The position numbers were made by a program, and so were the translations under genes. From positions 48,715 to 112,714 of IMG/VR virus record IMGVR_UViG_3300037483_001012: a DNA stretch of 64,000 nucleotides; one strand, given 5' to 3'. Shown here one piece after another: positions 7,615 through 23,522 of the stretch; the first letter of the stretch is position 1, and each line of letters begins with the position of its first letter. This stretch comes from a virus. Below the pieces are notes generated by a model. The model was given only the letters and a program-made list of their open reading frames with translations, ran no database searches and was not told the origin of the DNA.

Positions 7615-7643
7615 TTGACAGGCGTTGCGTCTTATGAGAGGGT
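7615..7643 (+). promoter_or_regulatory. Candidate sigma70 early promoter
   Basis: Perfect TTGACA at 7615-7620 after an AT-rich UP-like tract; weak -10 (GAGGGT) at 17 bp spacing. Confidence 0.45.
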
Positions 7644-7705
7644 ATGAATGCCACGCGATTGTGGCGTGTTCGGAATAGTCCGGACGAGATATGAGGAAGC
7701 ACCCA

Positions 7706-7876
7706 ATGCGCGCCATCACCACAACGGCCCTGGTCCTGCTGACACTGGCGGCCCCCGTCGTTGGCCTGCTGTATGTCGTCCCCGCTGTGAATGCGTGGGA
7801 GCTGGCGAACAACTATCCTTATGGCAAGATGTGCAATTCGATCTTTACCGCCAACGTTGACACCTGCCCCCGTTGA
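7706..7876 (+). CDS. Small membrane/secreted protein
   Basis: Hairpin + GAGGA RBS; hydrophobic N-terminus. Confidence 0.7.
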   Translation: MRAITTTALVLLTLAAPVVGLLYVVPAVNAWELANNYPYGKMCNSIFTANVDTCPR

Positions 7877-7971
7877 TGGCGCGCCACGTCCTGCGCCTCT
7901 ACATGGGGCGCAGTGCGGGGCACGTACCCCGTGATCGGAATGGACCGGTCATCATATGAGGAACCTAAGCC

Positions 7972-8184
7972 ATGGCTACCCTTGACCTGCACCCCGGCGC
8001 GTACACGTCGCGCAAAGGATTCCGCCCTGTCATCCGCACCTATCGCGATGGCGTCCCGCATGGCTCTAAGGCGTCCGGCTTCCTGTTCGCCACCAGGGCC
8101 GAAGCGGAATCACATGCGCGCATTGCTGCGCTCAATGTGGCTCTGAACTACAACGGCGCGTCCCTTCACGTCGCTGTGCACTAG
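7972..8184 (+). CDS. Hypothetical protein
   Basis: Hairpin + GAGGA RBS. Confidence 0.75.
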   Translation: MATLDLHPGAYTSRKGFRPVIRTYRDGVPHGSKASGFLFATRAEAESHARIAALNVALNYNGASLHVAVH

Positions 8185-8194
8185 GGCGCGCGCC

Positions 8195-8308
8195 ATGGTC
8201 CGCACCATCATCCGTGAGGCCGCCTTTGTCGGGACCTGCCTTGTCGTCGGCACGGTCCTAAGCGGGGTGGGCTTATTGGCTTACCTGCTGGTGGATTGGC
8301 GATTCTAG
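8195..8308 (+). CDS. 37-aa membrane peptide
   Basis: MVRTIIREAAFVGTCLVVGTVLSGVGLLAYLLVDWRF, read by hand. Confidence 0.5.
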   Translation: MVRTIIREAAFVGTCLVVGTVLSGVGLLAYLLVDWRF

Positions 8309-8407
8309 GCGTGCATCGCGTCCTGCCGTCTCGTCACGGGGCGGCAGTGCAGGGTGCAGCTACCCTCCCCGCTGGAATCGACCGCCGGGGCAAATCGAGG
8401 AAAAGAC

Positions 8408-9010
8408 ATGCCACAAGGCCGCGTTGAGAAAGTTGATTTTACCTCTGGCGGTGCCGGGAACCAATGGACCACGATTGACGGCGTGAGGTACGCCACATGG
8501 TGGGGTATCAAGACGAAGAATTGGCGCACGGGCGATCTGGTGACATTCGAAGTTTACAGCGCCCCGCTTTGGAGTGGCATGACGCCAATCGCTTGCGCCA
8601 AAAATATCAGCAAGGCCGAAAGCCAAAATATCATCCGCGCCAAGTTGATCGAGGCCCGCGCTCTTATTGCAGACCGTTCTAACTGGTGCATGGGAATGCA
8701 CGCCAGCGACCGCGACGGAAATGCCGTCTATCACAATGAACCGAACGCCAAATGCTTTTGCGCCGATGGCGCGCTAGGCAAGGTCTGTGGCGTCGAAATA
8801 AGCCCCGCCGGGGATTGGCAAAACAACCCTCTCTATAATTCGGTACGAAGCGTCGTCTGGGATGCAGCAACCCGCGAATTCGGCAAAAGCCATGTTTGCG
8901 TCAATGATGGTGAGCACCTGCCGGACGACTTCGATGACGATTCCGTTGTCGCCCGCTCACACCGCGATATTCTAACCGTTTTTGACAAGGCGATTGAGGC
9001 AATCGCCTAG
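8408..9010 (+). CDS. Hypothetical phage protein (C-terminal DUF6197-like domain)
   Basis: Hairpin + GAGG RBS before MPQGR; ARALI...WC.G...CFCADGAL...ND...H.DIL..FDKAI pattern. Confidence 0.75.
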   Translation: MPQGRVEKVDFTSGGAGNQWTTIDGVRYATWWGIKTKNWRTGDLVTFEVYSAPLWSGMTPIACAKNISKAESQNIIRAKLIEARALIADRSNWCMGMHASDRDGNAVYHNEPNAKCFCADGALGKVCGVEISPAGDWQNNPLYNSVRSVVWDAATREFGKSHVCVNDGEHLPDDFDDDSVVARSHRDILTVFDKAIEAIA

Positions 9011-9241
9011 CGCGCGCCGCGACGTGCGCCGGGTCCGCCCGGCGCATATCAGGGCGCGGCTACGTCTGGCCTAAGCCTCAGTGCGGCGCTACCAGTGGGT
9101 AGCGTGCGGCACGGGCGACGATGCAGGGGCAAACCGGACCGGGCGGGATTCCCGGAATGGACTCCCTGATGACGGGCAGGCAATCCCGCCGCGACAACCC
9201 TACCGCCCGGAATGGTCCGGGCGGGACATGAGGAACGAACT

Positions 9242-9370
9242 ATGAAACCCGCGATATTGCCCAATCCTTTCGACGATCTCGCCGCGCCGGCCAAGCGCAA
9301 GGCCAAGCGAAGGAAGCCCGCCCGCAAGCCGGCGACGCGCCGCAAGGTGGCCACACGCCGCAAGCGATAG
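9242..9370 (+). CDS. 42-aa Arg/Lys-rich protein
   Basis: Hairpin + GAGGA RBS; MKPAILPNPFDDLAAPAKRKAKRRKPARKPATRRKVATRRKR. Confidence 0.7.
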   Translation: MKPAILPNPFDDLAAPAKRKAKRRKPARKPATRRKVATRRKR

Positions 9371-9478
9371 GCGCGCGCCGCGTTGTGCAGCTCGTCGACA
9401 GACGGGCTGCATAGCAGGGCGCGGCCTAGGCCAGCTCTACCGTTCGGAATAGTCCGGACGGGTATCGAGGATCGTAAC

Positions 9479-9661
9479 ATGCTCTATGCAAACGTCCGCG
9501 TTGCGCGCGCCGCAACCGGCCTCTGGTCCGCCTTCGGGTCATGGGTCGGCGGCTCCTTTCATGTGCTTGGCTGCCTGTCGGATACCGAGGCCCGCGCCTT
9601 CGCGCGTGGCCGGTGCCTGGCCATCGGACGCGCGCCCCGCTACATCGGGGGTTCGCGATGA
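9479..9661 (+). CDS. Hypothetical protein
   Basis: Hairpin + GAGG RBS before MLYANV; followed by two tiny ATGA-coupled ORFs (9658-9747, 9744-9821). Confidence 0.7.
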   Translation: MLYANVRVARAATGLWSAFGSWVGGSFHVLGCLSDTEARAFARGRCLAIGRAPRYIGGSR

Positions 9662-9910
9662 AACGCAAACCCATCGCCTATGTCCGGCGCCGCACCCGAA
9701 AATTCGTGCGGACCGACAAGCGCGCGTTTCTGGAGTCGTGCCAATGATTAGCACCCCCGAGGCCATCGCCCTTGTCGTCCTGGCGCTTGTCTTGCTATGG
9801 CAGGCGTTCAGGCCAGCGTGACGTTGCGAAGCGGGGCGGCAGGTTCGCCCCGTCACGGAACGCCAAGCCGTCCCTTGCTGGAATTGTCCGGCACGAATTG
9901 AGGAATCGAT

Positions 9911-10819
9911 ATGAACATGATGGTAGGCCCGGAAGCCATGACGGCGGCCGCTCTTTCGTCCCGCGCAATGCTGGCGCGCCTGAAAATCTGCACTTGGTCG
10001 GCGACCAAACTTGACCGCAAGGTAACCGACAAGGTGAATACGGAACACCATGCCGCGCATGACGCCGGGCGCTATAACAAGCGCCTGCTTTCCAAAAGCG
10101 CAACGGCGGTCTTGACGCGGGTTTGCAGCGAGGCGCGCGCCGCGCACTACGCCCGCACCCTGCCCTGGCAGGATGACGGCGTGCGCATTCTTTCGGCCGC
10201 CGCGTATATGGAATACGCGGAAAAAATGGCCGGGCTGCGCTCTCAATTCGATGCGGCGGCCGACTCCTTCGCGATAGGCTATGCCGAATTCGTGATTGAT
10301 GAACGCGCGCGGCTTAACGGCATGTTCAATGCCGACGACTACCCGCCGGCGGAGATCATCCGCAACCGCTTTACCTTTGACGTGAAAATCGATGTGATGC
10401 CGGACGCGTCCGACTTCCGGGTCGACTTGGGCGAGGCGCAAGCGGCGGAGATCCGCGCCGATATCGAGGCGCGGACCAAACAAGCCTTGGCCGACGCGAT
10501 GCGCGACGTATGGGAACGCGTTGCGGAAAGCGTTGGCCACATGGCGGACCGGCTGAAAAACTACCGCCCGGCGGAAACCAAAGGCGACAAGTCGCAAGGC
10601 ATTTTCCGCGATTCGCTGGTGGAGAATATCCGCGATCTCGTCGCCGTGCTGCCCGGCCTCAACGTCACGGGCGACCCGCGGCTTGCCGCCGTCGCGGACC
10701 GCCTGCCCGCGTTGTGCCGCGACGACGCGGCGACGTTGCGCGACGACGCCACGGCGCGCGCCAGCGTGGCGGCGGAAGCCGACGCGATCTTAAAAGACGT
10801 ATCGGAATATCTGGCCTAA
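9911..10819 (+). CDS. DUF3150-like phage protein
   Basis: WSATKLDRK...YNKRLL...TLPWQDDGVRIL...IFRDSLVEN; typical partner of AAA/vWA pairs. Confidence 0.75.
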   Translation: MNMMVGPEAMTAAALSSRAMLARLKICTWSATKLDRKVTDKVNTEHHAAHDAGRYNKRLLSKSATAVLTRVCSEARAAHYARTLPWQDDGVRILSAAAYMEYAEKMAGLRSQFDAAADSFAIGYAEFVIDERARLNGMFNADDYPPAEIIRNRFTFDVKIDVMPDASDFRVDLGEAQAAEIRADIEARTKQALADAMRDVWERVAESVGHMADRLKNYRPAETKGDKSQGIFRDSLVENIRDLVAVLPGLNVTGDPRLAAVADRLPALCRDDAATLRDDATARASVAAEADAILKDVSEYLA

Positions 10820-10915
10820 GTGCATTCCGGCTAGGCGCGGCGGTAACGCCGCGCCCTTCCCGAGCGCATAACGCCCGCCGCGCGGAATGGCCCGCACGGA
10901 TTTGAGGAAACCGCT

Positions 10916-11929
10916 ATGAACCTGATTCAAGCATCCGCCGCACTCAATGCCTACATGGCGGCAAACGTGCCAACGTTCCTTTGGGGCGCGCCCGGCATCG
11001 GCAAGTCCGATCTGACGCGCGACGTGGCTAAGGCGAACGATATGCCGCTAATCGACGTGCGCGCAATCTTGCTCGATCCCGTCGACCTTCGCGGGCTGCC
11101 CACCGTGACCGATGGCCGCGCGACCTGGGCGCAACCGGATTTCTTGCCGCGCGCGGACCGGGACGGCCCTAAGGGCATTCTGTTGCTTGATGAATTGAAC
11201 GCCGCGCCCGCGTCGGTGCAAGCCGCACTTTTCCAACTGATTCTTGACCGCAAGCTAGGCGAATACACCTTGCCGCCGGACTGGCGCATTGTCGCGGCCG
11301 GTAACCGCCAAAGCGATCGCGCGGCGGCGCAGCGAATGCCGTCCGCCCTGGCCAATCGCTTCGCGCATATCGACGTTGACGCCGACGTGACCGCCTGGGG
11401 CAAATGGGCGGCGGCGAACAATATCGCGCCGATGGTGCTGGCGTTCATCCGTTTTCGTCCCGCCCTGCTGCACGCCATGGAAGGAAGCGATTTGCGCGCG
11501 TTCCCGACACCGCGCGCATGGGCAACCGTTGCCCGACTCCCGCAAGTCCAGACAGTCGGCACGGCGGACCGGGACGCGGACGCGTTCCGGCTGGCCCTGG
11601 TCGGCGGCGTCGTCGGCGAAGCGGCGGCGGCGGAACTGGAAGGCTTTATACGGGTCTGGCGATCCCTGCCGACAATCGCGGATATCATCGCGGACCCGGA
11701 CGGCGTGACCGTGCCGAACGATCCGGCCACGCTCTACGCGGTTTCAACCGCGCTGGCGCGCAAGGCGGACCGCAAGACCTTTGAACCGATCTTGCGCTTT
11801 GCCCGGCGCGCCATGGGGCAGGAATTCGGAATCCTGCTTTGCGTCGACGCGATCACGCGCGACCCGGACCTTAAAACGACGCGCGCATTCGTTGAATGGG
11901 CGTCCGACAATCAGGACGTAACGCTATGA
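10916..11929 (+). CDS. MoxR-like AAA+ ATPase
   Basis: GAPGIGKS Walker A, LLLDELN Walker B, AAGNR, LANRF. Confidence 0.92.
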   Translation: MNLIQASAALNAYMAANVPTFLWGAPGIGKSDLTRDVAKANDMPLIDVRAILLDPVDLRGLPTVTDGRATWAQPDFLPRADRDGPKGILLLDELNAAPASVQAALFQLILDRKLGEYTLPPDWRIVAAGNRQSDRAAAQRMPSALANRFAHIDVDADVTAWGKWAAANNIAPMVLAFIRFRPALLHAMEGSDLRAFPTPRAWATVARLPQVQTVGTADRDADAFRLALVGGVVGEAAAAELEGFIRVWRSLPTIADIIADPDGVTVPNDPATLYAVSTALARKADRKTFEPILRFARRAMGQEFGILLCVDAITRDPDLKTTRAFVEWASDNQDVTL

Positions 11930-13089
11930 GCCTGCCCCACAAGTTCACGCGCGCCCGCGCCGCGCTGGTCATGCGTCAGCCGTTTTTCGGAACGCTAGCG
12001 CTGCACCTCCGGGCCGAAATGACACCCGAATTTGACACGATGGCAACCGATGGCGTCCGGCTGCTGGTCAATCCGGATTTCTTGGAAACGCTTTCCGCCT
12101 CTGAGGCGGAAGGCGTGATAGCGCACGAAGTTCTACATTGTGCGTCAAAACACCATACGCGGCGCAAAGGCCGTGACGCCAAGCGCTGGAACATCGCTAC
12201 GGACCTGGCGATAAACCGCGATCTGATCGCGGCCGGCTTCAAACTACCGGCCGGGGCTCTGATCGATCCCAAGTATGGCGACCTTGGCGCGGAAGCGATC
12301 TACCGCCTGTTAGAGCAAGAAGAGCAAGCCGGCGGCGGTCAATCGCAACCCGCGCCGGGACAATCCGGCGGGACCGATCCGGGCGGGTGCGGCGAAATTC
12401 TCGACGCCGCGCCAGAACACGATACGGCGGCCGTCTCGGCGGCGGAGGCAGAATGGGATACGATCACGCGGCAAGCCGTCAACGTGGCCAAGGCCCGCAA
12501 CGCCGGGCAGGTCCCCGGCAATCTGGCGCGCCTTGTGGAAACCATGAACGCGCCGCGCGTCGACTGGCGCGGCGTGCTGCGCCGCTTTGTCGACGAGTCT
12601 ACGTCCCGCGACTTTTCATGGATGCGACCTAACCGCCGCCACCTGTACGCGGGCCGGATCATGCCGGGCTACGTCCCGGACCGGCCGTCCCATGTCGTGG
12701 CAATGATTGACACGTCCGGGTCAATTCAGCCGGCGGACCTGGCCGCGTTCCGAACTGAGATACAGGCCGCGCTTGACGACGGCGCGGCGGACCGGGTGAC
12801 CGTGGCCTATGCCGATACGGTGGTGCATGCGCATGACGAATTCGCCGCCGGGGATCTCGTTCGCATGGAAGCCAAGGGCGGCGGCGGCACGTCGTTTGCG
12901 CAGCCGTTGGCATGGGTTGCCGAGAACGTGCCGGACGTTTCGGCGGTCCTCTATATGACCGATTGCCAAGTGACCGAATGGGGCGACCCGCCCGCGCCCG
13001 TGCTTTGGGTTGTGACCGGCGACCCGCGCACGGCGGCGCGGTGCGCAGCGCGCGCGCCGTTCGGGGAGGTAATCATTTTGGCGGACTAG
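11926..13089 (+). CDS. Metallopeptidase-vWA protein (DUF2201-like)
   Basis: TMATDG, HEVLH (HExxH), IDTSGS MIDAS, GGGGT; ATGA overlap with the ATPase. Confidence 0.9.
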   Translation: MSLPHKFTRARAALVMRQPFFGTLALHLRAEMTPEFDTMATDGVRLLVNPDFLETLSASEAEGVIAHEVLHCASKHHTRRKGRDAKRWNIATDLAINRDLIAAGFKLPAGALIDPKYGDLGAEAIYRLLEQEEQAGGGQSQPAPGQSGGTDPGGCGEILDAAPEHDTAAVSAAEAEWDTITRQAVNVAKARNAGQVPGNLARLVETMNAPRVDWRGVLRRFVDESTSRDFSWMRPNRRHLYAGRIMPGYVPDRPSHVVAMIDTSGSIQPADLAAFRTEIQAALDDGAADRVTVAYADTVVHAHDEFAAGDLVRMEAKGGGGTSFAQPLAWVAENVPDVSAVLYMTDCQVTEWGDPPAPVLWVVTGDPRTAARCAARAPFGEVIILAD

Positions 13090-13162
13090 CGAACATCGAG
13101 GACGCGCCGCGCGCGCCCTCTCTCTCGTGCGGAATAGTCCGCACGTCATTGGAGGATATGGA

Positions 13163-13678
13163 ATGCTTACAAAGCATGAACTGCGCCGCGCCATGGGCGA
13201 AGCATATGGCGCTTGGTACTGGCGCACGCCGGGCCGCTTCGCACACAAGGCCGGACCGGACGGGAAAGCCGAGCGGGTCGCCTATATCCTAAAATATCGG
13301 GCGCGTCGCGCGGAACTAAGCGCCGGGACGTTCCGGCCGGAAGTAAACGCGCGCGGCAACGTCGTTTTGCGCGATCATGATGCAGACCGCGCGTTGCGCT
13401 TGCGCAATGCCGGCGACCGCTACGCATACGATTTTGGTCCGTGCCGGGCCTGGATTCAATTCGATACCCGACAAGATGCCATCTACTTTGGCGTATGGGT
13501 GAACCCAGACAATCGCCAAATATTCACCTACTGCGAAGGCGACCGGATTCTAGTTACATGCCCGACGCCCGAGTCATTCCGCACCGAGTTGATCGACGCA
13601 AAAGAATTCTACGGCGCGCCGATTCCGCCACCGCTGCAAGATTTACTCGCCGATCTGGAGTCGGCCACCTGTAACTAA
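13163..13678 (+). CDS. Hypothetical protein
   Basis: Hairpin + GGAGG RBS before MLTKH. Confidence 0.75.
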   Translation: MLTKHELRRAMGEAYGAWYWRTPGRFAHKAGPDGKAERVAYILKYRARRAELSAGTFRPEVNARGNVVLRDHDADRALRLRNAGDRYAYDFGPCRAWIQFDTRQDAIYFGVWVNPDNRQIFTYCEGDRILVTCPTPESFRTELIDAKEFYGAPIPPPLQDLLADLESATCN

Positions 13679-13772
13679 TCGCGCGCGTCGCGGTTTGCCG
13701 CGCCATGCGCGCGGCATTCCAGGGCGCGGCCCTATGCCGGGAATGGTCCCGGCGTTCAAATGAGGAAAGCAC

Positions 13773-14165
13773 ATGCCCGATATCTCAAAGCTTGTATCAG
13801 AACTGCGCCTTGGCGACCAAGTTGATTTGGAAGGCGACAAATTTGCGGACCCGCGCCTCGACAAGCCCGCGCTCCAAAGTGAATACCAACGCGTCGTCAG
13901 CGTTGAACGGGAAAGTACCAATTGCATCGCTGTCGCCTTCGAGGGATTCGACTTAATCGGATTCCCGCCGGACCACCGCGTTAAGGTAGCGCCATGCCAG
14001 ACAACAAAAATCAGCGTTCCGAGAGCCATGAGCGCGACGCAAGCCGATCTCGCCGCGTCATTGGCCTGCTACACGTCCGACGATGATTGGGGCGATGACC
14101 GGCGTGCGTTCCTGCAATCTGTCAGTGATCGAATCCTCTTGGATTTGATGACTGGCGAATACTAG
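13773..14165 (+). CDS. Hypothetical protein
   Basis: Hairpin + GAGGA RBS. Confidence 0.75.
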   Translation: MPDISKLVSELRLGDQVDLEGDKFADPRLDKPALQSEYQRVVSVERESTNCIAVAFEGFDLIGFPPDHRVKVAPCQTTKISVPRAMSATQADLAASLACYTSDDDWGDDRRAFLQSVSDRILLDLMTGEY

Positions 14166-14290
14166 GCGGCTCGCGCCTACTCCATAAATCGTCACTCTCC
14201 TAATCGTCCGCCATAATATTTACGCAATTATAGCGGATGGTGCCAAGATCAATTCGGTTTGGAATAGTCCGGACCACATATGAGGAACAC

Positions 14291-14527: not shown

Positions 14528-14569
14528 CTTTCACGTTCGGAATGGTCCGAACAGCGCATGAGGAAACCA

Positions 14570-15163: not shown

Positions 15164-15198
15164 CCCGCGCGGAATAGCCCGCGCACGTATAGGAGATC

Positions 15199-15366: not shown

Positions 15367-15415
15367 AGACTGAGACCGCAAGTGGAATGGTCCGCGCGCA
15401 ATGGAGGAAATATTG

Positions 15416-15598: not shown

Positions 15599-15643
15599 TC
15601 AAATCACTAGCGCGGAATAGTCCGCACGCAAAAGGAGGACGGC

Positions 15644-16878: not shown

Positions 16879-16949
16879 ATTCCGCCGCAATCGTCAACTA
16901 CCGTTTTCAAATTCTGGAATAGTCCGGAACAAACATGAGGAAAAAACCA

Positions 16950-18275
16950 ATGAACGCAATGACACCCGCTTTCTCCCCCGCGCGCCCGGCCAGCGATGCC
17001 GAGTCCGCGGCAATCGCCGCCTCGATGGTCCCGGCAAAGCCGGACCCGATTCCAGCCTCCCACACTCTCACCGCTCACGCGCGGCTGGACGGCCCGTCAC
17101 TGACTGCCGCGATCAACGCGTGCATCCGCATTGTCGAGAAACGCAACGCCGCTCCGATGTTCGCCAACGTCATGCTTACCGCCAGCGCCGGCGGCGTGAC
17201 CATGGAAGGGACCGACGGCGACATTGTCATTACGGTGCCGATCAACGGCACGGCTGACGCCAATTTTGCCACGACGATCCCCGCCCATATGTTGCGCGAC
17301 GTTCTGCGCAAGGCCAAGGGCTGCGAAATGGTCACTGTTGACCTGACCGAAAAGACCACGTACCGCGCGCCGTACGGCTATGAGAAGACCCTCGACCCGG
17401 TCCCGACGGTCGATAACCGCAATTCGCTGCGCATGGGTCGCTTCAAGGTTACGTTGAATGGCCTGCCGGCGGCCGACTTCCCCAAGCTCAAACCGGAATC
17501 TCGGCAATTCAGCCACAAGTTCACCATGCCGGCGGCCGATCTGGCGCGCGCACTTTCCAAGGTCGAATTCTGCATCTCGACTGAGGAAACGCGCTACTAC
17601 TTGAACGGCATCTACATGCACGTCCCTCACCATTCGAAAGCAAGGCCGGCGACGCTGTGCTTTGCCGCGACGGATGGCCATCGCATGGGCGTCGCCGACA
17701 TCCCGGCGCCGGATGGCGTCTTTGGTATGCCCGGCGTCATCGTGCCGGCCAAGGCCGTGGCTGAATTCATCCGACTGTGTTCTGCCAAACCGGTTGCCGA
17801 GCATTATGTCACCATCTCTGTTTCGCCAGCGCGGGTACAACTCCAGGCCGGCGACGTGACGGTGAACTCCTACGTTATCGATGGCACCTACCCGGACTAC
17901 GGCCGCGTCGTCCCGTCCGGCAATGACAAGCTGGCGCGCGTCGATATCGCCGACCTGATCGACGCGGTCGACAAGGTTTGCGTCATCTCGTCGGAGCGCG
18001 GCCGTACGGTCAAGCTCGCCTTCACGGCTGGCAACTGCTTGCTGACCGTGGTCAACCCGGATACCGGCGCTGCGACCCTGCCGATCGATCTGGAATATTC
18101 CAGCAACCCCATGGATATCGGCTTCAACTCCAGATATCTGACTTCCATCCTGGAGATGTTCGACGGCGACGTGGTCGAAATGCTGATGGCCGATCCCGGC
18201 TCGCCGACACTCTTCACCGGTCGCGACACCAAGGACTCCGGGGTACGGTACGTGCTCATGCCAATGCGGGTGTAG
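16950..18275 (+). CDS. dnaN: DNA polymerase III beta sliding clamp
   Basis: ISTEETRYYLNGIY, ATDGHR, IDGTYPDY, IGFNSRYL, YVLMPMRV C-terminus. Confidence 0.95.
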   Translation: MNAMTPAFSPARPASDAESAAIAASMVPAKPDPIPASHTLTAHARLDGPSLTAAINACIRIVEKRNAAPMFANVMLTASAGGVTMEGTDGDIVITVPINGTADANFATTIPAHMLRDVLRKAKGCEMVTVDLTEKTTYRAPYGYEKTLDPVPTVDNRNSLRMGRFKVTLNGLPAADFPKLKPESRQFSHKFTMPAADLARALSKVEFCISTEETRYYLNGIYMHVPHHSKARPATLCFAATDGHRMGVADIPAPDGVFGMPGVIVPAKAVAEFIRLCSAKPVAEHYVTISVSPARVQLQAGDVTVNSYVIDGTYPDYGRVVPSGNDKLARVDIADLIDAVDKVCVISSERGRTVKLAFTAGNCLLTVVNPDTGAATLPIDLEYSSNPMDIGFNSRYLTSILEMFDGDVVEMLMADPGSPTLFTGRDTKDSGVRYVLMPMRV

Positions 18276-18364
18276 CACGCGCATGCCTACGCGGCGGGGC
18301 GCGTTGTCCCGCCGCAGCTACCAGCGCCAGGAATGGTCCTGACGCCAGATATGGGAGCCGCGAT

Positions 18365-18784
18365 GTGACCACAGCCCTTTCATTTTTGTTCGAAAAATAC
18401 GCGAACCTACAGCCGGAAGACCCACACTGGATTTGCGACGGGGCCGATGACGAGTCGGCGGACTACTGCCGGAAATGCGCCTTGGCCAAAATCAAGAAGG
18501 ACGGCAAAGGCGAACTGAACATGTCGGTCGCGCCCGAAAGCGATAGCTGTAGCCACTGCGAGCAATGCGGCAAGTTGCTCGACTATTGCCTCACGAACTC
18601 AGGCGCCGACGCGGAGCTAGATCACTTCCGTAAGGTCAAATTCCGGCGCGGCAAACCGCTCGACCGGCAAACCGCATACCATTTGGCCAGGATGCTTGCG
18701 GCCAAGGGGGGCGACTTTGAGGCGACCGAGATTGCTGCGCGCGCTATCCGCTGCATGAAGTCGATCCCAAATATCTCGCATTAA
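18365..18784 (+). CDS. Cys-rich hypothetical protein
   Basis: Hairpin + GGAG RBS, GTG start; CRKC and CEQCG pairs. Confidence 0.7.
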   Translation: MTTALSFLFEKYANLQPEDPHWICDGADDESADYCRKCALAKIKKDGKGELNMSVAPESDSCSHCEQCGKLLDYCLTNSGADAELDHFRKVKFRRGKPLDRQTAYHLARMLAAKGGDFEATEIAARAIRCMKSIPNISH

Positions 18785-18839
18785 ACACGCAACGGCTCAC
18801 CGCCAGGAATTGTCCCGGCGAAATAGGAGGAACTACCGA

Positions 18840-19199
18840 ATGACCGCAGGTCCCGCAATCTCATTCCGCTCCCTCAACGGTAAATACGTCGGCGTCTATG
18901 CTTTGCCCGGCGATCAACGCTGGCGGACCGTAGGCGCCAACGGCAAGGACAGCCTGTTCGACACCGCGCGCGAGGCCGAGGCTATCGCCGGCCACGTCCT
19001 ATGTGCCAAGATTCATCAATCGCCAGCCGTTCTCCAAGAGCCGCACCGGCAGGAACTGCATGCCCTGCTCAATGACCTGGTCGACTGGCATGCCATGATG
19101 GGCGGATTCGAGGCCCCGGTGTGGGGGCGCGTCGAGAAAATGCGGGAGCGCGTGGCGGCGCCGCCGGCCAGGCCCCGCCTTGTCGCGGGAGGGCGGTGA
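18840..19199 (+). CDS. Hypothetical protein
   Basis: Hairpin + GGAGG RBS before MTAGP. Confidence 0.75.
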   Translation: MTAGPAISFRSLNGKYVGVYALPGDQRWRTVGANGKDSLFDTAREAEAIAGHVLCAKIHQSPAVLQEPHRQELHALLNDLVDWHAMMGGFEAPVWGRVEKMRERVAAPPARPRLVAGGR

Positions 19200-19200
19200 T

Positions 19201-19452
19201 ATGGCATCCATCGCAATCATCGCACCAGACGGCAACAGCGTTGTCGGCCTATCGCACGAACGCTTGTCGGCTCGCGCCTTAAATCGCATGGCCGCACGAG
19301 TCGGTAATCTCATGGCTGTGCCTGGCATCCGCTATGACAATTCAGTGTGCAGGGGCCTGAACTGGCCACTGCGCTTCCAACTGGTGACCGTAATTATCAA
19401 TGGCCGCTGGCGTACATTCGATCCAGACTATCTGCCGGCCGAGTTTTGGTAA
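19201..19452 (+). CDS. Hypothetical protein
   Basis: Starts 1 nt after the upstream stop. Confidence 0.6.
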   Translation: MASIAIIAPDGNSVVGLSHERLSARALNRMAARVGNLMAVPGIRYDNSVCRGLNWPLRFQLVTVIINGRWRTFDPDYLPAEFW

Positions 19453-19475
19453 AAAATAATCAGGAGGGCAATGCG

Positions 19476-19793
19476 ATGAACGACCACAATGCTAGCGCCG
19501 CATCCAATGAATGGCCGGTCCGCCGCTTCCTCGATCTCTCCACCGCGCACCTGCGCCCCGAAACGCGCTCGCTCTGGATGGAATGCTTCTGCGCAAAAAG
19601 CTTCCCTGGCACGGTTCTGATCGGCGAGCACGGCTGGATGCTGCACGTCCCGGAACGCAACACGGATTGGGACTACCGGTGCGGCGCGGAACTGTTCGCC
19701 ATCTTCGACAAGGCCCGCTCGCTCAGTTGTGACTACGTGCTGTTCGACGCTGACGGCAGCATGATCGATGGTCTTCCAGTCTTCAACGATTGA
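19476..19793 (+). CDS. DUF5983-like protein
   Basis: FLDLSTAHL...GW..VP...CDYVLFDADG pattern; GGAGG RBS. Confidence 0.7.
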   Translation: MNDHNASAASNEWPVRRFLDLSTAHLRPETRSLWMECFCAKSFPGTVLIGEHGWMLHVPERNTDWDYRCGAELFAIFDKARSLSCDYVLFDADGSMIDGLPVFND

Positions 19794-19839
19794 TTGACCT
19801 CAACGAAAACCGCCGACATCAACCAAGAAGGAGATTCCC

Positions 19840-20175
19840 ATGATTGCCTACTGCTACGCGTCCGGTCTGATCCAATTCGGCCGCAAGACACCCGACGGCG
19901 CCATAGCGATCGCGGCCGGCCCGGCGAAGCCGTTGCGCGATCTGATCGACGCCCGCGCTCGCCACGGCTACGAGACCAGGAAGGTCAAGGGGCGGCCGAC
20001 GAAGATCCCCGGTACCGAATGCCTGCTGGTGCCCGGCGTTCCCGAGGCGCCAGACCAGGAAGCCGGCGGCGACGCGCTGGGCGCGTTCTGCAAGTGGATC
20101 GGCGAGAAGCCGCCGAAAGGCATAACGGTATTCGGCATGCGTCCGAGCCGCCGGCCTGGCCGCAAGGCCGCCTGA
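19840..20175 (+). CDS. Conserved phage protein (often annotated 'host nuclease inhibitor')
   Basis: AYCYASGLIQFG...ARHGY...LLVPGVPEA; AAGGAG RBS. Confidence 0.6.
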   Translation: MIAYCYASGLIQFGRKTPDGAIAIAAGPAKPLRDLIDARARHGYETRKVKGRPTKIPGTECLLVPGVPEAPDQEAGGDALGAFCKWIGEKPPKGITVFGMRPSRRPGRKAA

Positions 20176-20212
20176 GTAACACCAGATGACCGAACATAGT
20201 CAGGAACCGAAC

Positions 20213-20587
20213 ATGGGCAAAAAAACAATCCAAACCTTGCTTGACCTGCTTAATCCGCTACACGGCGCGCTCGATAAGCGGACGATGGATTTGCGGGAAG
20301 AAAACTACCCCGCCGATTTCTGCCGCGACGACGAGATTGATGTGATCGTTACGCGGGGGATGGAGCGCGATCTGACGCAAGCAGTCTCTATCCTCGAAAA
20401 CCGTCTCACCACGGCGGACGACCTGATTGATACGGTCGAGGCAATGCAGTCCTTCATTGGCATCATGTTCGGGCAAGGCCCAGACGCCATCATTCCCGAA
20501 ACGGTCAATGCACCCATCGGCATCCCGATCAAGGTCGGTGACCTCATGCGCTCAGTTTCCGCCATTGTCGCGCGGGCCAAAGCGTAA
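20213..20587 (+). CDS. Hypothetical protein
   Basis: AGGA RBS, MGKKTIQ. Confidence 0.7.
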   Translation: MGKKTIQTLLDLLNPLHGALDKRTMDLREENYPADFCRDDEIDVIVTRGMERDLTQAVSILENRLTTADDLIDTVEAMQSFIGIMFGQGPDAIIPETVNAPIGIPIKVGDLMRSVSAIVARAKA

Positions 20588-20627
20588 TTCGCACATAACC
20601 CGCAACCGATTGGCACAGGAGAGACCG

Positions 20628-20774
20628 ATGGCCAAGAACACCTACCCGAAGACCGACCGCATCCGCGAACTCCGTGAACAGAAATGGGAGCGCGACCAAG
20701 CCGCGTTGCGGGCGACCGCGTCCAGCCCCAGGCCGGCCGTGAAGCCGGCGCGCCGCAAGCGGGCGAAGAAGTAA
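20628..20774 (+). CDS. Small basic protein
   Basis: AGGAG RBS; MAKNTYPKTDRIRELRE...RRKRAKK. Confidence 0.6.
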   Translation: MAKNTYPKTDRIRELREQKWERDQAALRATASSPRPAVKPARRKRAKK

Positions 20775-20782
20775 CCACGATC

Positions 20783-21208
20783 ATGGCCGCTTCCGTCTCC
20801 GAGATCTCCGACATGTTCGCCCGCGCCAGCTTGTCTATGGCTGCTGCCGAGATCAAGGCCCTGACGAAAGAGGAGATGATCGACTCTTATATTCTCGCAA
20901 TCGGCATACATCTTAAGCGCGCCGAACGACTGATAACGCTCGCCTCGCGCCTCAACGCGTCGTCGCGCCTCCCCCGTCGGGCAATCGCCATCACCGCGAT
21001 TAACCAAGCGAGCAAACGGGTGATAGCGGCTGAAACTTGCGACGTCCTATTGAGGGCCGTTGACGCGACAAAAGGCGCCCTGCCCTGGTCGGACGATCCG
21101 TACTCGCCGAACATCAAAGACAAGATCGCTATTATTCAGGGTTTCTTGAATGCGCCACCAGCAAGAAAGCCGCGGGCGCGTGACATGGACGACGAGATTC
21201 CATTCTGA
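20783..21208 (+). CDS. Hypothetical protein with SSB-like DDEIPF tail
   Basis: Ends in DMDDEIPF. Confidence 0.65.
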   Translation: MAASVSEISDMFARASLSMAAAEIKALTKEEMIDSYILAIGIHLKRAERLITLASRLNASSRLPRRAIAITAINQASKRVIAAETCDVLLRAVDATKGALPWSDDPYSPNIKDKIAIIQGFLNAPPARKPRARDMDDEIPF

Positions 21209-21254
21209 TATCCACGACCCGTCCGGAATCGACCGAACGACATAGGAGGAAGCA

Positions 21255-22586
21255 CTGAACACACATTTCCAACCCGGCGCCTTGGCGCTCCAGCGCCGTC
21301 TCTCCGACGTGGTCGCAGAGTACGATCAAAAACGGGTTGCGCTCGACCAGGCCTTGGTCGATTTCAACACCGCCGGCGAGGCGCTCAAGATGGCCGCCAC
21401 CATCGGCGGCACCTATGGCGACACGAACATAGAAACCGGCCACGTGTATGAGCGCGAGCTATCCACCAGCCTCTTGCGATCGGCATGGAAACATGTCTAC
21501 GCCGGACTCAACATCGCTGTTCTCGCCAGCCCGAAGGATAAGCGGCGGTTTGAACAATCGCTGACAGACCCTGCACCCTTCACAATCGACAACATCCGGG
21601 CGAGCTTTGGCACTTACATCCTCGACCCGCGCGCGGCTATCTTGCGCTCCATGGCCGAAGTGTTCTGCGATCTGGACCCATTCTACCGCAGTCACGAGAA
21701 GATGAAGGTCGGCGTTAAGGGCCTGCCGAAGCGCGTAATTCTCAATTACATGGGCGACTACAGCAGCCACGGCAGGGAGAAGGTCGAGGCGATCATCAAT
21801 GCGATGGCGGCGTTCGAGGGAAAGCCGCTGGTGACGTGGCGCGAAATTAGCGCGCTGCTCAAAGACGAACGCGCCCTGGTCGAAGACGGAGACCTCCCCG
21901 CTGATCGCACTTGGGACGAGCCTGTCAAGGTCATCGGTCGAGGCATCCGCCTGCGCCGGTTTGGCAACGGCAATGGCCACTTGTTCTTTGAGCCGGCGGC
22001 GCTGCGCACGATCAACCTCGCATTGTCAGAATACTATGGTGAGATCCTGCCTGACTGCGCCGATGACGCGCCCGACGCGCCGCGAGCGTCAACCGCCGTC
22101 GCCAAGGACCTTCAATATTACCCAACACCGGCGAAGGTTGCCGCCGACGTGGTGACCGAGGCCTACGTCAAGAAAGGCGACCTGGCGCTTGACCCTTCCT
22201 GCGGTTGCGGTCGCCTGCTCGACGCGGCGCGTGCTGCCGGCGCCAAGGTGGTTGGCATTGAGGTTGATCCGCTCCGCGCCGCCGAGGCCATGCGTAAAGG
22301 CCACCGCGTCATGGTGGCCAACTTCCTCGATACCGTTCCGACGCCGACCTATGACGTCGTGCTGATGAACCCGCCGTTCTACGGCAAACACTACGTCAAG
22401 CACGTAGAGCACGCCCTCAAATTCCTAAAGTCTGGCGGCAGGCTGATCGCAATCCTGCCGTCGACCGCACGCTATGACCATGGGTTGGTGGATGGCAGTT
22501 GGCGCGACTTGCCGGTCGGCTCATTCAGCGAGAGCGGCACGAATGTGAACACCAGCGTTCTGACGATCCACAACAGGGAACGGTGA
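21255..22586 (+). CDS. DUF4942-like domain + N6-adenine DNA methyltransferase
   Basis: YYPTP, DPSCGCG, MNPPF; AGGAGG RBS is spaced for an in-frame CTG start at 21255. Confidence 0.85.
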   Translation: MNTHFQPGALALQRRLSDVVAEYDQKRVALDQALVDFNTAGEALKMAATIGGTYGDTNIETGHVYERELSTSLLRSAWKHVYAGLNIAVLASPKDKRRFEQSLTDPAPFTIDNIRASFGTYILDPRAAILRSMAEVFCDLDPFYRSHEKMKVGVKGLPKRVILNYMGDYSSHGREKVEAIINAMAAFEGKPLVTWREISALLKDERALVEDGDLPADRTWDEPVKVIGRGIRLRRFGNGNGHLFFEPAALRTINLALSEYYGEILPDCADDAPDAPRASTAVAKDLQYYPTPAKVAADVVTEAYVKKGDLALDPSCGCGRLLDAARAAGAKVVGIEVDPLRAAEAMRKGHRVMVANFLDTVPTPTYDVVLMNPPFYGKHYVKHVEHALKFLKSGGRLIAILPSTARYDHGLVDGSWRDLPVGSFSESGTNVNTSVLTIHNRER

Positions 22587-22589
22587 GTA

Positions 22590-22916
22590 ATGGACCTTCC
22601 CAAAAACGTCGGCATCGTCATGCCCTTCATCGACTCGGCGATGGAGGAGTTACGCTGTGTCGACAAAGGCAATCACTCAATCGCCGTGGTAGTCTCTACA
22701 GTCAGAGAAGCCATCAAGCAACTGGTGGCGGCGCAGACGCTGATTAAATTCTTCAACAGCGAACTAACCGACGCCACCATCGATGATGTCTGCAACGATC
22801 TCCACACCGGCTATGCCGTGGTTAACGGCCGGATGTTTCGAGTGGCCAGCCCATCGTTTTCGCATGGCCACAACTCCATCGAGATCAAGCTTACGCTGCT
22901 GTCAAAGGGGACATAA
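22590..22916 (+). CDS. Hypothetical protein
   Basis: ORF in operon, lower GC. Confidence 0.65.
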   Translation: MDLPKNVGIVMPFIDSAMEELRCVDKGNHSIAVVVSTVREAIKQLVAAQTLIKFFNSELTDATIDDVCNDLHTGYAVVNGRMFRVASPSFSHGHNSIEIKLTLLSKGT

Positions 22917-22919
22917 AGC

Positions 22920-23522
22920 ATGCTAGACAATTTCCTGTCCCTATCTCGCCCGGAGGATTTCGTGGCCACGACGACTGCCGATCTGCGCGCCGCGCGCATG
23001 CTGCTGGGCCTGTCCCGCGTTGAAATGGGTCAACTCCTTGGCGTTGACGCCAAGGAAGTCCAACTTCTCGAGCGCGGGCGAACCCACTTCGTTTTTCGCG
23101 GCCATGCCGCCATGCTTGAGGCCATGCTCGAACAGGTCAACACCCTGCTGCTGGAGCACACCGGCGACGCCGTGCCGGCGCCAGAATTCCTGTTCTGCTA
23201 CCCGAACAACGAGGTGTTCGAGGAAATGGAGCCGGCTCTCTCCAAGTGGATGCGCTTCAATTCGGTGCATCAGATGTTTATGACGCGCGTCATGGACGAC
23301 TGGATGCAGCGCGACCACCGCCCTGTCATCGTCGAGATCGTTCCGAAGCAATACCAGGAATTCATCGCCGTTCGTGGCGGCAAGGACACGATAGGCCAGC
23401 GCACCGCCTGGGCGATGGAGCACCTGAAGGTCATCAAGTATCGGCCTGGCCTGCCGCGTCAGGACTACGAGGGCAAGATCAAATTCGAAGCCACAGACGA
23501 CCAAGGAGGAGAACGAGAATGA
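22920..23522 (+). CDS. Aca2/YdiL (DUF1870)-like helix-turn-helix protein
   Basis: HTH TADLRAARMLLGLSRVEMGQLLGVDAKEVQLLERG, then LFCYPNNEVF, H..F..RV and IV.I....Y..F.....DT...R.AWA, as I recall for DUF1870-type proteins. Confidence 0.65.
   Translation: MLDNFLSLSRPEDFVATTTADLRAARMLLGLSRVEMGQLLGVDAKEVQLLERGRTHFVFRGHAAMLEAMLEQVNTLLLEHTGDAVPAPEFLFCYPNNEVFEEMEPALSKWMRFNSVHQMFMTRVMDDWMQRDHRPVIVEIVPKQYQEFIAVRGGKDTIGQRTAWAMEHLKVIKYRPGLPRQDYEGKIKFEATDDQGGERE

What the first reader, a model, noticed from the sequence alone, without database searches (positions are those of the whole stretch)
7668..23522. Candidate giant Aca2-like RNA-operator regulon: 18 covarying RBS-proximal hairpins plus a downstream Aca2/YdiL-like HTH gene
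SEEN: the decamer GGAATNGHCC occurs at 7672, 7937, 8374, 9209, 9446, 9880, 10884, 13131, 13740, 14261, 14539, 15171, 15384, 15614, 16916, 18330, 18806 and 21225. All are on the coding strand and intergenic, with the core starting about 28-35 nt before a start codon, just 5' of a GAGG/GGAG Shine-Dalgarno. Flanks differ in sequence but keep pairing, often with G-U pairs: gttcgg-AATAGT-ccggac, gtgatcgg-AATGGA-ccggtcat, ccgcccgg-AATGGT-ccgggcgg, cgtgcgg-AATAGT-ccgcacg, gccggg-AATGGT-cccggc, gcgcgg-AATAGC-ccgcgc, ggtttgg-AATAGT-ccggacc. This points to an RNA (or ssDNA) hairpin with a conserved loop rather than a dsDNA box. Translationally coupled genes (9658, 9744, 11926, 15820, 19201) lack it. The penultimate gene of the array (22920-23522) looks like a DUF1870/YdiL HTH. 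KNOWN: Aca2-family proteins lie downstream of anti-CRISPR genes and repress them both through DNA inverted repeats and by binding an mRNA stem-loop next to the RBS; described cases cover small operons. INFERENCE: one regulator shuts off translation of about 18 cistrons across 14 kb after an early burst. Alternatives: an RNase-processing/stabilising signal, a boxB-like antitermination site, an N4-like hairpin promoter, or a PeSL-like shuffling cassette.
Basis: partly seen in the sequence, partly recalled or inferred. Interest (0 to 1): 0.92.

Follow-up and report, generated by a model that had tools for sequence, protein, structure and literature searches.

The report
Host-type leader hairpin before phage genes
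A 113-kb phage puts the same small RNA hairpin plus ribosome-binding site in front of 18 accessory genes; the module also occurs in an unrelated phage and before bacterial genes such as ribosomal protein L11, so the phage probably borrows a host signal rather than obeying its own Aca2-like regulator.

Summary
GGAATNGHCC occurs 22 times in the window against 2.3 expected. Eighteen copies lie on the + strand between 7672 and 21225, all intergenic, 20-23 nt before a GAGGA-type Shine-Dalgarno. Their stems covary (score 0.478 against 0.156 shuffled, 0/500).

The Aca2 reading is only partly supported. The HTH at 22920-23522 does have an Aca2/YdiL-type fold, closest to DUF4447 (2OX6, target-normalised TM-score, TMt, 0.83; Aca2 0.72). 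It misses Pfam PF08965.

The link between protein and hairpin fails in both directions:
- A complete, unrelated 41.8-kb phage carries about 9 copies of the same hairpin and has no homologue.
- A 61.9-kb phage with a 41%-identical HTH has no such hairpin.

A covariance model built only from phage sites also hits bacterial chromosomes. It matches the rplK (L11-L1 operon) leader in four genomes of one sampled Hyphomicrobiales genus (seed genome titled Bradyrhizobium sp.), a higB-higA spacer and, weakly, a DUF1127-type leader; a pattern search found the same hairpin top in gcvT leaders.

Best reading: a host-type RNA leader cassette (hairpin plus AUGAGGAA) that marks independently translated early or accessory cistrons and is read by an unidentified, probably host, factor.

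Earlier notes of this scan describe similar arrays in Bradyrhizobium prophages. I found no match in Rfam and no published description in the library searched.

The parts
7240..7660 (+). About 420-bp AT-richer non-coding region ahead of the array. Presumed promoter region of the + strand operon.
   Evidence: Read. It holds TTGACC and TTGACA hexamers, but no consensus sigma-70 site was scored there and no inverted repeat of 7 nt or more. The promoter role is inferred.
7666..7699 (+). Leader cassette 1: hairpin guucGG-AAUAGU-CCggac, then AUAUGAGGAA. Start codon at 7706 (56 aa).
   Evidence: R1 36.8 bits
7931..7964 (+). Leader cassette 2. Start codon at 7972 (70 aa).
   Evidence: 36.4 bits
8367..8403 (+). 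Leader cassette 3, stem with one mismatch. Start codon at 8408 (DUF6197 protein, 200 aa).
   Evidence: 25.3 bits
9203..9236 (+). Leader cassette 4, the best copy (9-bp stem, -20 kcal/mol). Start codon at 9242 (42-aa Lys/Arg-rich orphan peptide).
   Evidence: (42.1 bits)
9440..9473 (+). Leader cassette 5. Start codon at 9479; the genes at 9658 and 9744 are translationally coupled and have no hairpin.
9874..9906 (+). Leader cassette 6. Start codon at 9911 (302 aa).
10878..10910 (+). Leader cassette 7. Start codon at 10916 (AAA_5 MoxR-like ATPase). The coupled gene at 11926 is a DUF2201 metallopeptidase/VWA protein.
13125..13157 (+). Leader cassette 8. Start codon at 13163 (171 aa).
13734..13768 (+). 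Leader cassette 9. Start codon at 13773 (130 aa).
14255..14288 (+). Leader cassette 10. Start codon at 14291 (78 aa).
14533..14566 (+). Leader cassette 11, in a 48-nt spacer that holds nothing else. Start codon at 14570 (197 aa).
15165..15197 (+). Leader cassette 12. Start codon at 15199 (55 aa).
15378..15410 (+). Leader cassette 13. Start codon at 15416 (60 aa).
15608..15640 (+). Leader cassette 14. Start codon at 15644 (59 aa); the gene at 15820 (352 aa) is coupled.
16910..16943 (+). Leader cassette 15. Start codon at 16950 (DnaN-like sliding clamp, 441 aa).
18324..18358 (+). Leader cassette 16. GTG start codon at 18365 (139 aa).
18800..18832 (+). Leader cassette 17. Start codon at 18840, followed by a run of tightly packed genes (overlapping by up to 4 nt or abutting) without hairpins up to 20587.
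21219..21251 (+). Leader cassette 18. It precedes the DUF4942 methyltransferase gene. No ATG, GTG or TTG lies at the usual distance: CTG at 21255 is in frame, and the first TTG is at 21282.
22920..23522 (+). HTH protein (200 aa), a divergent DUF4447-family member with an Aca2/YdiL-type fold. It has no hairpin of its own.
47141..47162 (+). Orphan copy of the hairpin (7-bp stem) inside the RecT-like ORF 46027-47517. No RBS or start follows at the usual distance.
   Evidence: 20.8 bits

Best explanation
The repeat is a composite leader cassette of about 40 nt:
- a 6-9 bp stem of free, compensating sequence;
- two G-C closing pairs that are invariant in this phage;
- a six-base tip AAUNGN;
- a 5-8 nt A/U-rich spacer;
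- an unusual (A)UGAGGAA Shine-Dalgarno;
- 5-9 nt, then the start codon.

It stands before 18 of the cistrons that have their own spacer in a roughly 16-kb + strand accessory/early operon (7.7-23.8 kb). The operon encodes DUF6197, MoxR/VWA-metallopeptidase, sliding clamp, DUF5983 and DUF4942-methylase proteins plus many orphans. The cassette is absent before translationally coupled genes and before a few spaced ones (20684, 22590, 22920, 23547).

I read it as an RNA element of the polycistronic mRNA whose tip is recognised sequence-specifically by a trans-acting factor that is not private to this phage. That factor is most likely a component of the host lineage (Hyphomicrobiales; the chromosomal copies lie in a genus whose seed genome is titled Bradyrhizobium sp.). 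Binding next to the SD would set translation initiation and/or protect the 5' side of each cistron. The phage thus dresses its accessory genes in a leader that host genes such as rplK also use.

Shown: the anatomy, the covariation, the fixed spacing, and the occurrence in an unrelated phage and in chromosomal leaders.

Inferred: that it acts as RNA, that a factor binds the tip, and the direction of the effect.

The Aca2-fold HTH at the operon's end is more likely an ordinary DNA-binding regulator of this operon than the hairpin reader.
For: 1. The element is real and structured.
2. All 18 copies have the gene's orientation and an asymmetric invariant core (AAU on the left, G on the right). A symmetric dimer operator would not need this.
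3. The distance to the SD is fixed at 20-23 nt, and TGAGGAA is used as an RBS almost only here.
4. There is one cassette per independently initiated cistron for 18 cistrons and none before coupled ones.
5. G001 is a complete 41.8-kb phage with no detectable shared protein. It has eight copies with the identical GG-AAUNGN-CC tip in front of GGAGGA-ATG in its terminal small-gene array. A further copy has the outer closing pair changed compensatorily, GG..CC to AG..CU.
6. Model R1, built only from phage sites, also finds chromosomal sites. It hits 7 of 101 genomes of one Hyphomicrobiales genus (seed genome titled Bradyrhizobium sp.) at E <= 1e-3 per genome. Four of these are the nusG-rplK spacer: hairpin with covarying stem, 4-5 nt, AUGAGGAG, 7 nt, AUG of L11.
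7. R1 also matches a higB-higA spacer in a bacterial contig (33.4 bits) and, weakly (16-22 bits), the leaders of a DUF1127-like gene. A pattern search found the same hairpin top before gcvT in two genomes.
8. There is no enrichment of sigma-70-like promoters or intrinsic terminators inside the array, and no phage RNA polymerase among the ORFs tested.
Against:
- G-U and A-C mismatches are equally frequent in the stems (12 against 12). The usual signature that separates RNA from a DNA palindrome is therefore missing.
- No host genome searched carries more than one or two copies, so a dedicated host regulon is not evident.
- Most species of the genus have a hairpin at the same place before rplK but with other sequences. 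The hairpin's position, rather than this tip, may be what matters in the host.
- The factor is unidentified.
- Conservation of the tip between G000 and G001 could also reflect a small reader gene that BLAST cannot see.
Confidence: 0.45

Rival explanations
1. The Aca2-fold HTH (22920-23522) accumulates after an early burst, binds every hairpin next to the RBS and shuts off translation of about 18 cistrons.
For: - The fold and profile are similar to Aca2 and YdiL: Foldseek TMt 0.72-0.73 and probability 1.00; profile E about 3e-8 to four Aca2 structures.
- 7 of 52 family members hit PF08965 and 16 of 52 hit DUF4447.
- Aca2 and Aca1 bind 5'-UTR hairpins, and intercistronic motifs are predicted for them (PMC13551039).
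- The gene sits at the distal end of the array without a hairpin of its own.
- The 41%-identical homologue in G404 is flanked by three other hairpin-SD modules (cgcgAUCGygcg), which would fit co-evolving specificity.
Against: - G001 has the identical hairpin tip and no homologue. Its array ends with an unrelated HTH_17 gene.
- G404 has the homologue and no GGAAUNGNCC hairpin.
- The module occurs before chromosomal rplK, gcvT and higA.
- The protein itself misses PF08965 even at E <= 1.
- There is no promoter inverted repeat.
- Aca2 binds a pair of hairpins derived from its DNA repeat; here there is a single hairpin with a variable stem.
Confidence: 0.15
2. A self-sufficient structural leader with no trans factor. 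A stable local hairpin just 5' of the SD insulates each RBS from upstream coding sequence, hinders 5'-dependent RNases after processing, and keeps the SD open. The tip is conserved because the cassette spreads by copying or because this tip folds especially well.
For: - Host rplK leaders keep a hairpin at the same place whatever its sequence.
- The phage spacers also carry large GC-rich hairpins right after stop codons, which fits transcripts built for stability.
- The spacing puts the stem at the 5' edge of the ribosome footprint.
Against: - Six of eight stem pairs vary while eight tip and closing positions are invariant in 18 + 8 copies of two unrelated phages and in host sites. Neutral tips should have drifted faster than stems.
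- Positions 4 and 6 of the tip are free while positions 1-3 and 5 are fixed. This looks like recognition, not folding.
Confidence: 0.12
3. A DNA-level signal. It could be a class-specific promoter (GGAAT as an ECF-type -35 element, or an N4-like extruded hairpin promoter). It could instead be an oriented repressor site acting on elongation, like the stoperators of mycobacteriophage L5.
For: - One copy lies before each transcription-unit-sized gene, all in one orientation.
- GGAAT is a classical ECF -35 core (own knowledge).
- Equal numbers of G-T and A-C mismatches are what a DNA palindrome under no RNA selection would give.
- Both arrays lie in early-type positions; in G001 the array begins about 0.5 kb from the contig end.
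Against: - Stem covariation has no role in a duplex promoter.
- Nothing downstream of the core is conserved between G000 and G001 except the SD, and the spacing to it differs (21 against 24 nt).
- A transcript starting after the hairpin would leave only a few nt before the SD.
- No RNA polymerase or sigma factor was found among the ORFs tested, and no ORF exceeds 1434 aa.
- The N4 type has a 3-nt loop.
- In host rplK, gcvT and higA the module lies inside known transcription units.
Confidence: 0.1
4. The reader is the 42-aa Lys/Arg-rich peptide encoded at 9242-9370, an arginine-rich-motif peptide that clamps the hairpins as lambda N clamps boxB.
For: - The ORF has the best hairpin copy and a strong RBS. 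Its C-terminal half is almost all K/R.
- Earlier notes of this scan report an Arg-rich microprotein beside similar arrays (e1-5766637; unverified).
Against: - The peptide is an orphan in 5.8 billion proteins.
- No comparable peptide was found in the G001 array; the ORF after its variant hairpin is a 120-aa acidic protein.
- Host chromosomal sites exist without it.
- Such peptides can equally be DNA-condensing.
Confidence: 0.05
5. A junction for gene shuffling (PeSL-like or cassette-like). The shared 40-nt leader serves as a homology patch for swapping accessory genes between phages.
For: - The array is made of unrelated small genes.
- G001 shows tandem duplications that carry the leader with them (113-aa gene x2, pentapeptide-repeat genes x3).
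- Unrelated phages share the leader.
Against: - Only about 10 + 8 nt are conserved and the stems differ, which is a poor substrate for homologous exchange.
- No shared cargo genes between G000 and G001.
- This reading does not explain the covariation or the host sites.
- It may be a by-product rather than the function.
Confidence: 0.05

Closest known systems
Aca2 / Aca1 RNA motifs of anti-CRISPR operons (PMC13551039 and the work cited there)
   Same: - Covarying hairpins sit in the 5' UTR or between cistrons, next to the RBS of early counter-defence-type genes.
- An HTH gene lies at the end of the operon.
- The HTH here has the Aca2/YdiL fold.
   Different: - Up to three motifs per locus are reported, against 18 here.
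- Aca2 binds two hairpins related to its DNA inverted repeat; here there is one hairpin with a free stem and a fixed tip.
- The protein is DUF4447-like and misses PF08965.
- Motif and protein do not co-occur across phages.
- No known acr gene is present.
Start-associated sequences (SAS) and extended SAS of Cluster K mycobacteriophages (PMC3203893)
   Same: - 11-19 oriented copies, restricted to the non-structural half.
- They lie a few nt before start codons, embed the SD, and are associated with unrelated genes.
- Their function is unknown, with a suspected role in translation initiation.
   Different: - The sequence differs (GGGATAGGAGCCC).
- The authors state that departures in the ESAS repeats do not support RNA pairing, whereas here pairing covaries.
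- SAS is absent from the host genome, whereas this module occurs in host leaders.
Ribosomal-protein L1 operator in the rplK-rplA leader (PMC3616713)
   Same: - In Proteobacteria the L1-binding RNA directly precedes rplK.
- It is a small stem next to the RBS, and binding blocks translation.
- The chromosomal copies of this very module lie exactly there in four genomes of one sampled genus, seed titled Bradyrhizobium sp..
   Different: - The published consensus is a 6-12 bp stem with an internal bulge (G-A pair plus an unpaired A), not a plain hairpin.
- Other species of the genus have unrelated sequences in the hairpin at this place.
- No L1 binding was tested.
- The phage copies precede non-ribosomal genes.
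RNase III processing sites between the early genes of phage T7 (own knowledge)
   Same: Structured elements sit in nearly every spacer of an early polycistronic transcript, just upstream of each RBS.
   Different: The stems here have 6-9 bp, too short for RNase III by the E. coli rules. A conserved tip rather than a long irregular duplex is the constant feature.
T4 RegA regulon (own knowledge; review PMC3014915 listed, not read)
   Same: One factor acts on the translation initiation regions of many early mRNAs.
   Different: RegA sites are unstructured AU-rich sequences over the start codon. No RegA homologue was seen.

Membership tests
Aca2 (Pfam PF08965 Aca2_YdiL / DUF1870) | Match to the PF08965 model | tested here: not met
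   There is no hit for P0001, P0002 or P0003 at E <= 1. The six-frame search of G000, G001 and G404 gives none at E <= 1. Only 7 of 52 distant family members match.
Aca2 (Pfam PF08965 Aca2_YdiL / DUF1870) | Aca2/YdiL three-dimensional fold (N-terminal HTH plus helical extension) | tested here: met
   The AF2 model has pLDDT 90.8. Foldseek gives 7EZY, 7VJP and 7B5J TMt 0.72-0.73, and 1S4K TMt 0.73. The family profile against PDB gives Aca2 E about 3e-8.
Aca2 (Pfam PF08965 Aca2_YdiL / DUF1870) | Inverted-repeat DNA operator over the operon promoter, and a pair of related hairpins in the 5' UTR | tested here: not met
   No inverted repeat of 7 nt or more lies in 7200-7705. Each site has a single hairpin with a variable stem.
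Aca2 (Pfam PF08965 Aca2_YdiL / DUF1870) | Co-occurrence of the regulator with its RNA motif across genomes | tested here: not met
   G001 has the motif and no protein. G404 has the protein and no motif.
Aca2 (Pfam PF08965 Aca2_YdiL / DUF1870) | Binding of the RNA and repression of translation | not testable with these tools
   This needs EMSA and reporter assays.
DUF4447 (PF14590; structure 2OX6, SO3848) | Sequence and fold membership | tested here: met
   - P0001 itself has no direct Pfam hit.
- Its 42-44%-identical relative P0004 passes the gathering score (29.3 against 27.2).
- 16 of 52 family members match.
- The family profile hits 2OX6 at E 6e-20 over the full length.
- Foldseek gives TMt 0.83, E 4e-7.
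Cluster K SAS/ESAS | 13-bp GGGATAGGAGCCC at 3-7 bp from the start; 17-bp inverted repeats without pairing-preserving changes | tested here: not met
   The sequence is different, and pairing-preserving changes are present. It is analogous in layout only.
L1-binding leader of rplK/rplA | Position directly before rplK (Proteobacteria) | tested here: met
   This is met for the chromosomal copies only: L245-L248 lie between nusG and rplK. The 18 phage copies precede other genes.
L1-binding leader of rplK/rplA | Stem with an internal bulge holding a G-A pair and an unpaired A; conserved wherever L1 is conserved | tested here: inconclusive
   The element is a plain hairpin. Tip positions A1 and G5 could pair non-canonically, but this is conjecture. 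Other species of the genus have other sequences at this place.
N4-type hairpin promoters | 5-7 bp stem with a 3-nt loop; giant virion RNA polymerase | tested here: not met
   The tip has six bases. The largest ORF is 1434 aa, and no polymerase was found among the ORFs scanned.
Rfam families | Match to any of the 4227 covariance models | tested here: not met
   There is no relevant hit at E <= 5 over 6500-24500, nor in the host rplK leaders.

The most novel reading that the evidence does not exclude
The hairpin-SD cassette is the host's own L11-operon leader signal, and its reader is ribosomal protein L1 or another ribosome-assembly-linked factor. By placing 18 copies on abundant early mRNA the phage would do one of two things. 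It would either couple translation of its accessory genes to the host's pool of free ribosomal protein, or soak up that protein and so deregulate L11/L1 synthesis. That would be a viral hijack of ribosomal-protein feedback control.
Probability: 0.1. Interest if true: 0.9.

Novelty: new variant of a known kind. Interest (0 to 1): 0.62.

Why it matters
Arrays of start-linked repeats in phage genomes, such as the SAS of Cluster K mycobacteriophages, have been known since 2011 without a mechanism.

Here the repeat is shown to be a covarying hairpin fused to a special RBS. It is shared by unrelated phages and also used by host genes, including a ribosomal-protein operon.

That moves the question from 'which phage regulator?' to 'which host-lineage factor reads this tip?'. 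It also gives a compact, testable cassette: a 40-nt leader with separate tip and stem mutants.

The result also warns against assigning an RNA regulon to a neighbouring Aca-like HTH on position and fold alone.

Tried and rejected
- Close relatives of the phage. Megablast of 7000-24000 and of G001 against GenBank phages found nothing. tblastn of the HTH against phages found nothing. Relatives of the DUF2201 protein in IMG/VR are at most 42% identical and lack the motif.
- Contexts of the two closest HTH homologues (Logan contigs).
No locus had two or more hairpin-type sites.
- 401 genomes of the Hyphomicrobiales sample had at most 2 pattern hits per genome (80 hits against 10 for the control), so there is no host array.
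- The first AF2 model from 3 sequences was useless (pLDDT 46). It was replaced by a model from 52 sequences.
- Shared reader protein between G000 and G001. blastp down to E = 5 gave only short, unconvincing hits; a 126/123-aa pair at E 1e-3 has no informative family.
- PHROGs on ten array proteins gave one family of unknown function.
- IS element of the phage against plasmids, tried to find the host: no match.
- More viral loci with HTH relatives. One was found (G404). Two single-protein scans found none, and two alignments were too diverse to use.
- Search for the L1 stalk of the host's 23S rRNA by the E. coli word CCTTGAAATACC gave only chance hits. The rRNA-mimicry question is untested.
- CsrA-type sites were rejected: the GGA is in the stem, not the loop.
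- Sigma-54 and ECF promoters were rejected: the spacings do not fit.
- attC, REP, tRNA-like and IRE-like readings were considered from memory and dropped on anatomy.

Full report
**Setting.** The window is bases 48,715-112,714 of a 112,714-bp IMG/VR virus record rated 94% complete. G+C is 59%. The record has a structural half on the - strand. The window holds a + strand block at 7.7-23.8 kb and a - strand replication block, with intein-bearing DnaB, a primase, an SNF2 helicase and an intein-bearing C5-methylase. A further + strand block carries an SMC-like ATPase, a PDDEXK protein, RecT, a radical-SAM protein, a PP2C phosphatase and a CI/LexA-like repressor. No RNA polymerase was seen among the ORFs scanned, and the longest ORF is 1434 aa. 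The nearest named relatives of the sliding clamp are phages of Aurantimonas, Rhizobium and Sinorhizobium.

GGAATNGHCC occurs 22 times against 2.3 expected. Eighteen copies lie at exactly the stated positions, on the + strand and in spacers. The SD follows at a nearly fixed distance: core start to GAGGA is 20-23 nt. The start codon follows the core start by 27-35 nt.

On an ungapped alignment the eight pairs around the tip are 84.7% paired, against 66.5% after shuffling. Six of the eight pairs show changes on both sides. The covariation score is 0.478 against 0.156 (0/500 shuffles) and 0.06-0.14 for slid registers. Mean stability is -11.4 kcal/mol against -4.2 for random 26-mers. Genes that overlap or abut their predecessor lack the element.

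I add two points.
- The SD belongs to the repeat. TGAGGAA serves as an RBS nine times here and almost nowhere else in the genome.
- G-U pairs are not favoured over A-C mismatches (12 against 12).

A covariance model of the 39-nt unit (R1) finds all 18 copies and, elsewhere in the whole record at E < 0.1, only the orphan copy at 47147. Rfam has nothing.

**The HTH.** The protein of 22920-23522 gives only weak HTH_31/HTH_3 hits in Pfam, even at E <= 1. A profile of it and its two close relatives, searched against 1.84 billion representatives, recovers 126 proteins, about 60 of them full-length proteins of 155-190 aa.
- Of the 52 members aligned, 16 match DUF4447 and 7 match Aca2_YdiL.
- The next relative, P0004 (42-44% identical), passes the DUF4447 gathering score.
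- The family profile hits 2OX6 (SO3848) at E 6e-20 and four Aca2 structures at about 3e-8.
- An AlphaFold model built on the 52 sequences (pLDDT 90.8) matches 2OX6 (TMt 0.83), then Aca2 (TMt 0.72-0.73) and YdiL (0.73).

The protein is a divergent DUF4447-type member of the Aca2/YdiL superfamily, not a PF08965 protein.

**The link between HTH and hairpin fails.** A pattern scan of IMG/VR found one contig with several hits. This is G001, 41,844 bp, rated 100% complete, 64% G+C. It encodes an SNF2 helicase, an AEP primase, a UvrD helicase, a terminase and a Mu-type portal fused to a topoisomerase IB domain. It shares no detectable protein with the window's phage.

G001's terminal array of small genes and pentapeptide-repeat genes carries eight copies of ...GG-AAUNGN-CC... 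with covarying stems, each followed by GGAGGA and ATG. A ninth copy has the outer closing pair changed compensatorily to A-U. Neither tblastn, the 3-sequence HMM nor the 52-sequence HMM in six frames finds the HTH family there. G001's array ends with an unrelated HTH_17 gene.

Conversely G404 is a complete 61.9-kb phage with a 41%-identical HTH and a few other shared genes. It has no R1 match at E <= 1e-3. It does have three other hairpin-SD modules with a cgcgAUCGygcg core around the HTH gene. That could mean co-evolving specificity, but three sites prove little.

**The module is also chromosomal.**
- A metagenome scan returned a bacterial contig in which a perfect copy lies between higB and higA: 8-bp stem, AUGAGGAA, ATG, 33.4 bits with R1.
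- In 101 genomes of the genus of a Bradyrhizobium MAG, R1 hits seven at E <= 1e-3 per genome. Four of the seven are the spacer between nusG and rplK: CCUCCGG-AAUGGU-CCGGAGG, 4 nt, AUGAGGAG, 7 nt, AUG of L11, with rplA next. The stems covary between species.
- The likeness to the phage cassette extends to the spacer and to the AUGAGGA box.
- Only 3 of 61 sampled genomes of the genus have this form before rplK. The others keep a hairpin at the same place with other sequences.
- The same hairpin top also precedes gcvT in two genomes, a DUF1127-like gene in three genomes, and a solute-binding protein gene in one.
- No genome of the 401-genome order-level sample has more than two pattern hits.

**Reading.** An invariant, asymmetric tip on a freely compensating stem argues for sequence-specific recognition of a folded single strand next to the ribosome-binding site. 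So do the fixed spacing from a special SD, the single orientation, and the restriction to independently initiated cistrons. The tip is identical in two phages without common proteins and in host leaders, so the simplest reader is something the host lineage supplies.

Fu et al. place the L1 operator directly before rplK in Proteobacteria and describe it as a small stem with a G-A-containing bulge (PMC3616713). The chromosomal copies sit at that place, which makes L1 a named candidate. The plain hairpin and the sequence turnover between species speak against a simple equation. I keep this as the novel case at about 10%.

Whether binding represses (operator), enhances, or protects the mRNA cannot be decided from sequence. 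A purely structural insulator, a DNA-level signal, the 42-aa basic peptide (an orphan) and a shuffling junction remain as rivals. The Aca2-type model keeps about 15%: the fold is right and binding was not tested.

**Known analogues and novelty.** The layout resembles the SAS/ESAS of Cluster K mycobacteriophages, whose function is still open and whose repeats do not covary (PMC3203893). It also resembles, on a much larger scale, the Aca1/Aca2 RNA motifs (PMC13551039). Library searches found no description of this element.

Earlier notes of this scan report similar hairpin-RBS arrays in Bradyrhizobium-type prophages, one of them 'in front of toxin-antitoxin genes' and one beside an Arg-rich microprotein. 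These are unverified AI notes; what I could check here agrees in part.

I class the finding as a new variant of a known kind: start-linked regulatory leaders of phage accessory genes. The new point is that the leader is host-type.

Noticed in passing
window 7874-14200 (spacers after stop codons): The longer spacers begin, right after a stop codon (TAG in 9 of 17 spacers), with a second repeated GC-rich element (UAG-GCGCGCGCC...). It folds into large hairpins of -20 to -40 kcal/mol without a U tract. These may be 3' stabilisers or U-less terminators.
   Followed up: partly
window 9242-9370: An unannotated 42-aa ORF with the best hairpin copy and a strong RBS. Its C-terminal half is almost entirely Lys/Arg/Pro/Ala. 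It has no relative in 5.8 billion proteins.
   Followed up: partly
window 47141-47162: A perfect 7-bp copy of the hairpin lies inside the RecT-like ORF (46027-47517). A GAGGAA lies 30 nt after the start of the core, but no start codon follows at the usual distance.
   Followed up: no
window 21235-21285: The DUF4942-methyltransferase gene behind hairpin 18 has no ATG, GTG or TTG at the usual distance from its SD. An in-frame CTG lies at 21255 and the first TTG at 21282, so a non-canonical start is possible.
   Followed up: no
window 40040-40810: A CI/LexA-like repressor (HTH_3 plus Peptidase_S24) suggests that this 113-kb phage is temperate.
   Followed up: no
window 24876-27302 and 31436-33814: The DnaB helicase carries a LAGLIDADG intein, and the C5 cytosine methylase carries Hint/intein-splicing domains.
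   Followed up: no
G001 (L091, right contig end, about 41,400-41,844): The contig end is a run of degenerate GC-rich repeats (CCTGGGCGCCCCTACGGCGCC...). An AT-rich region follows, then a 33-aa ORF just before the first hairpin of that phage's array.
   Followed up: no
G404 (L240 about 7600-8330; G404 34,280-35,010): Two spacers share an approximately 80-nt three-hairpin module: a GC hairpin, GGAAC-N6-GUUCC, then cgcgAUCGugcg, followed by the SD. This is the same multi-hairpin spacer architecture as in G001, with other sequences.
   Followed up: partly
L258-L261, L245-L248 (rplK leaders in genomes of the genus sampled from a Bradyrhizobium sp. MAG): All eight leaders share a conserved stretch ACCACGG(A/U)(A/C)CCUG(U)(G)AA(A/G)CC just 5' of the variable hairpin. 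It may be the true L1-binding part of the leader.
   Followed up: no
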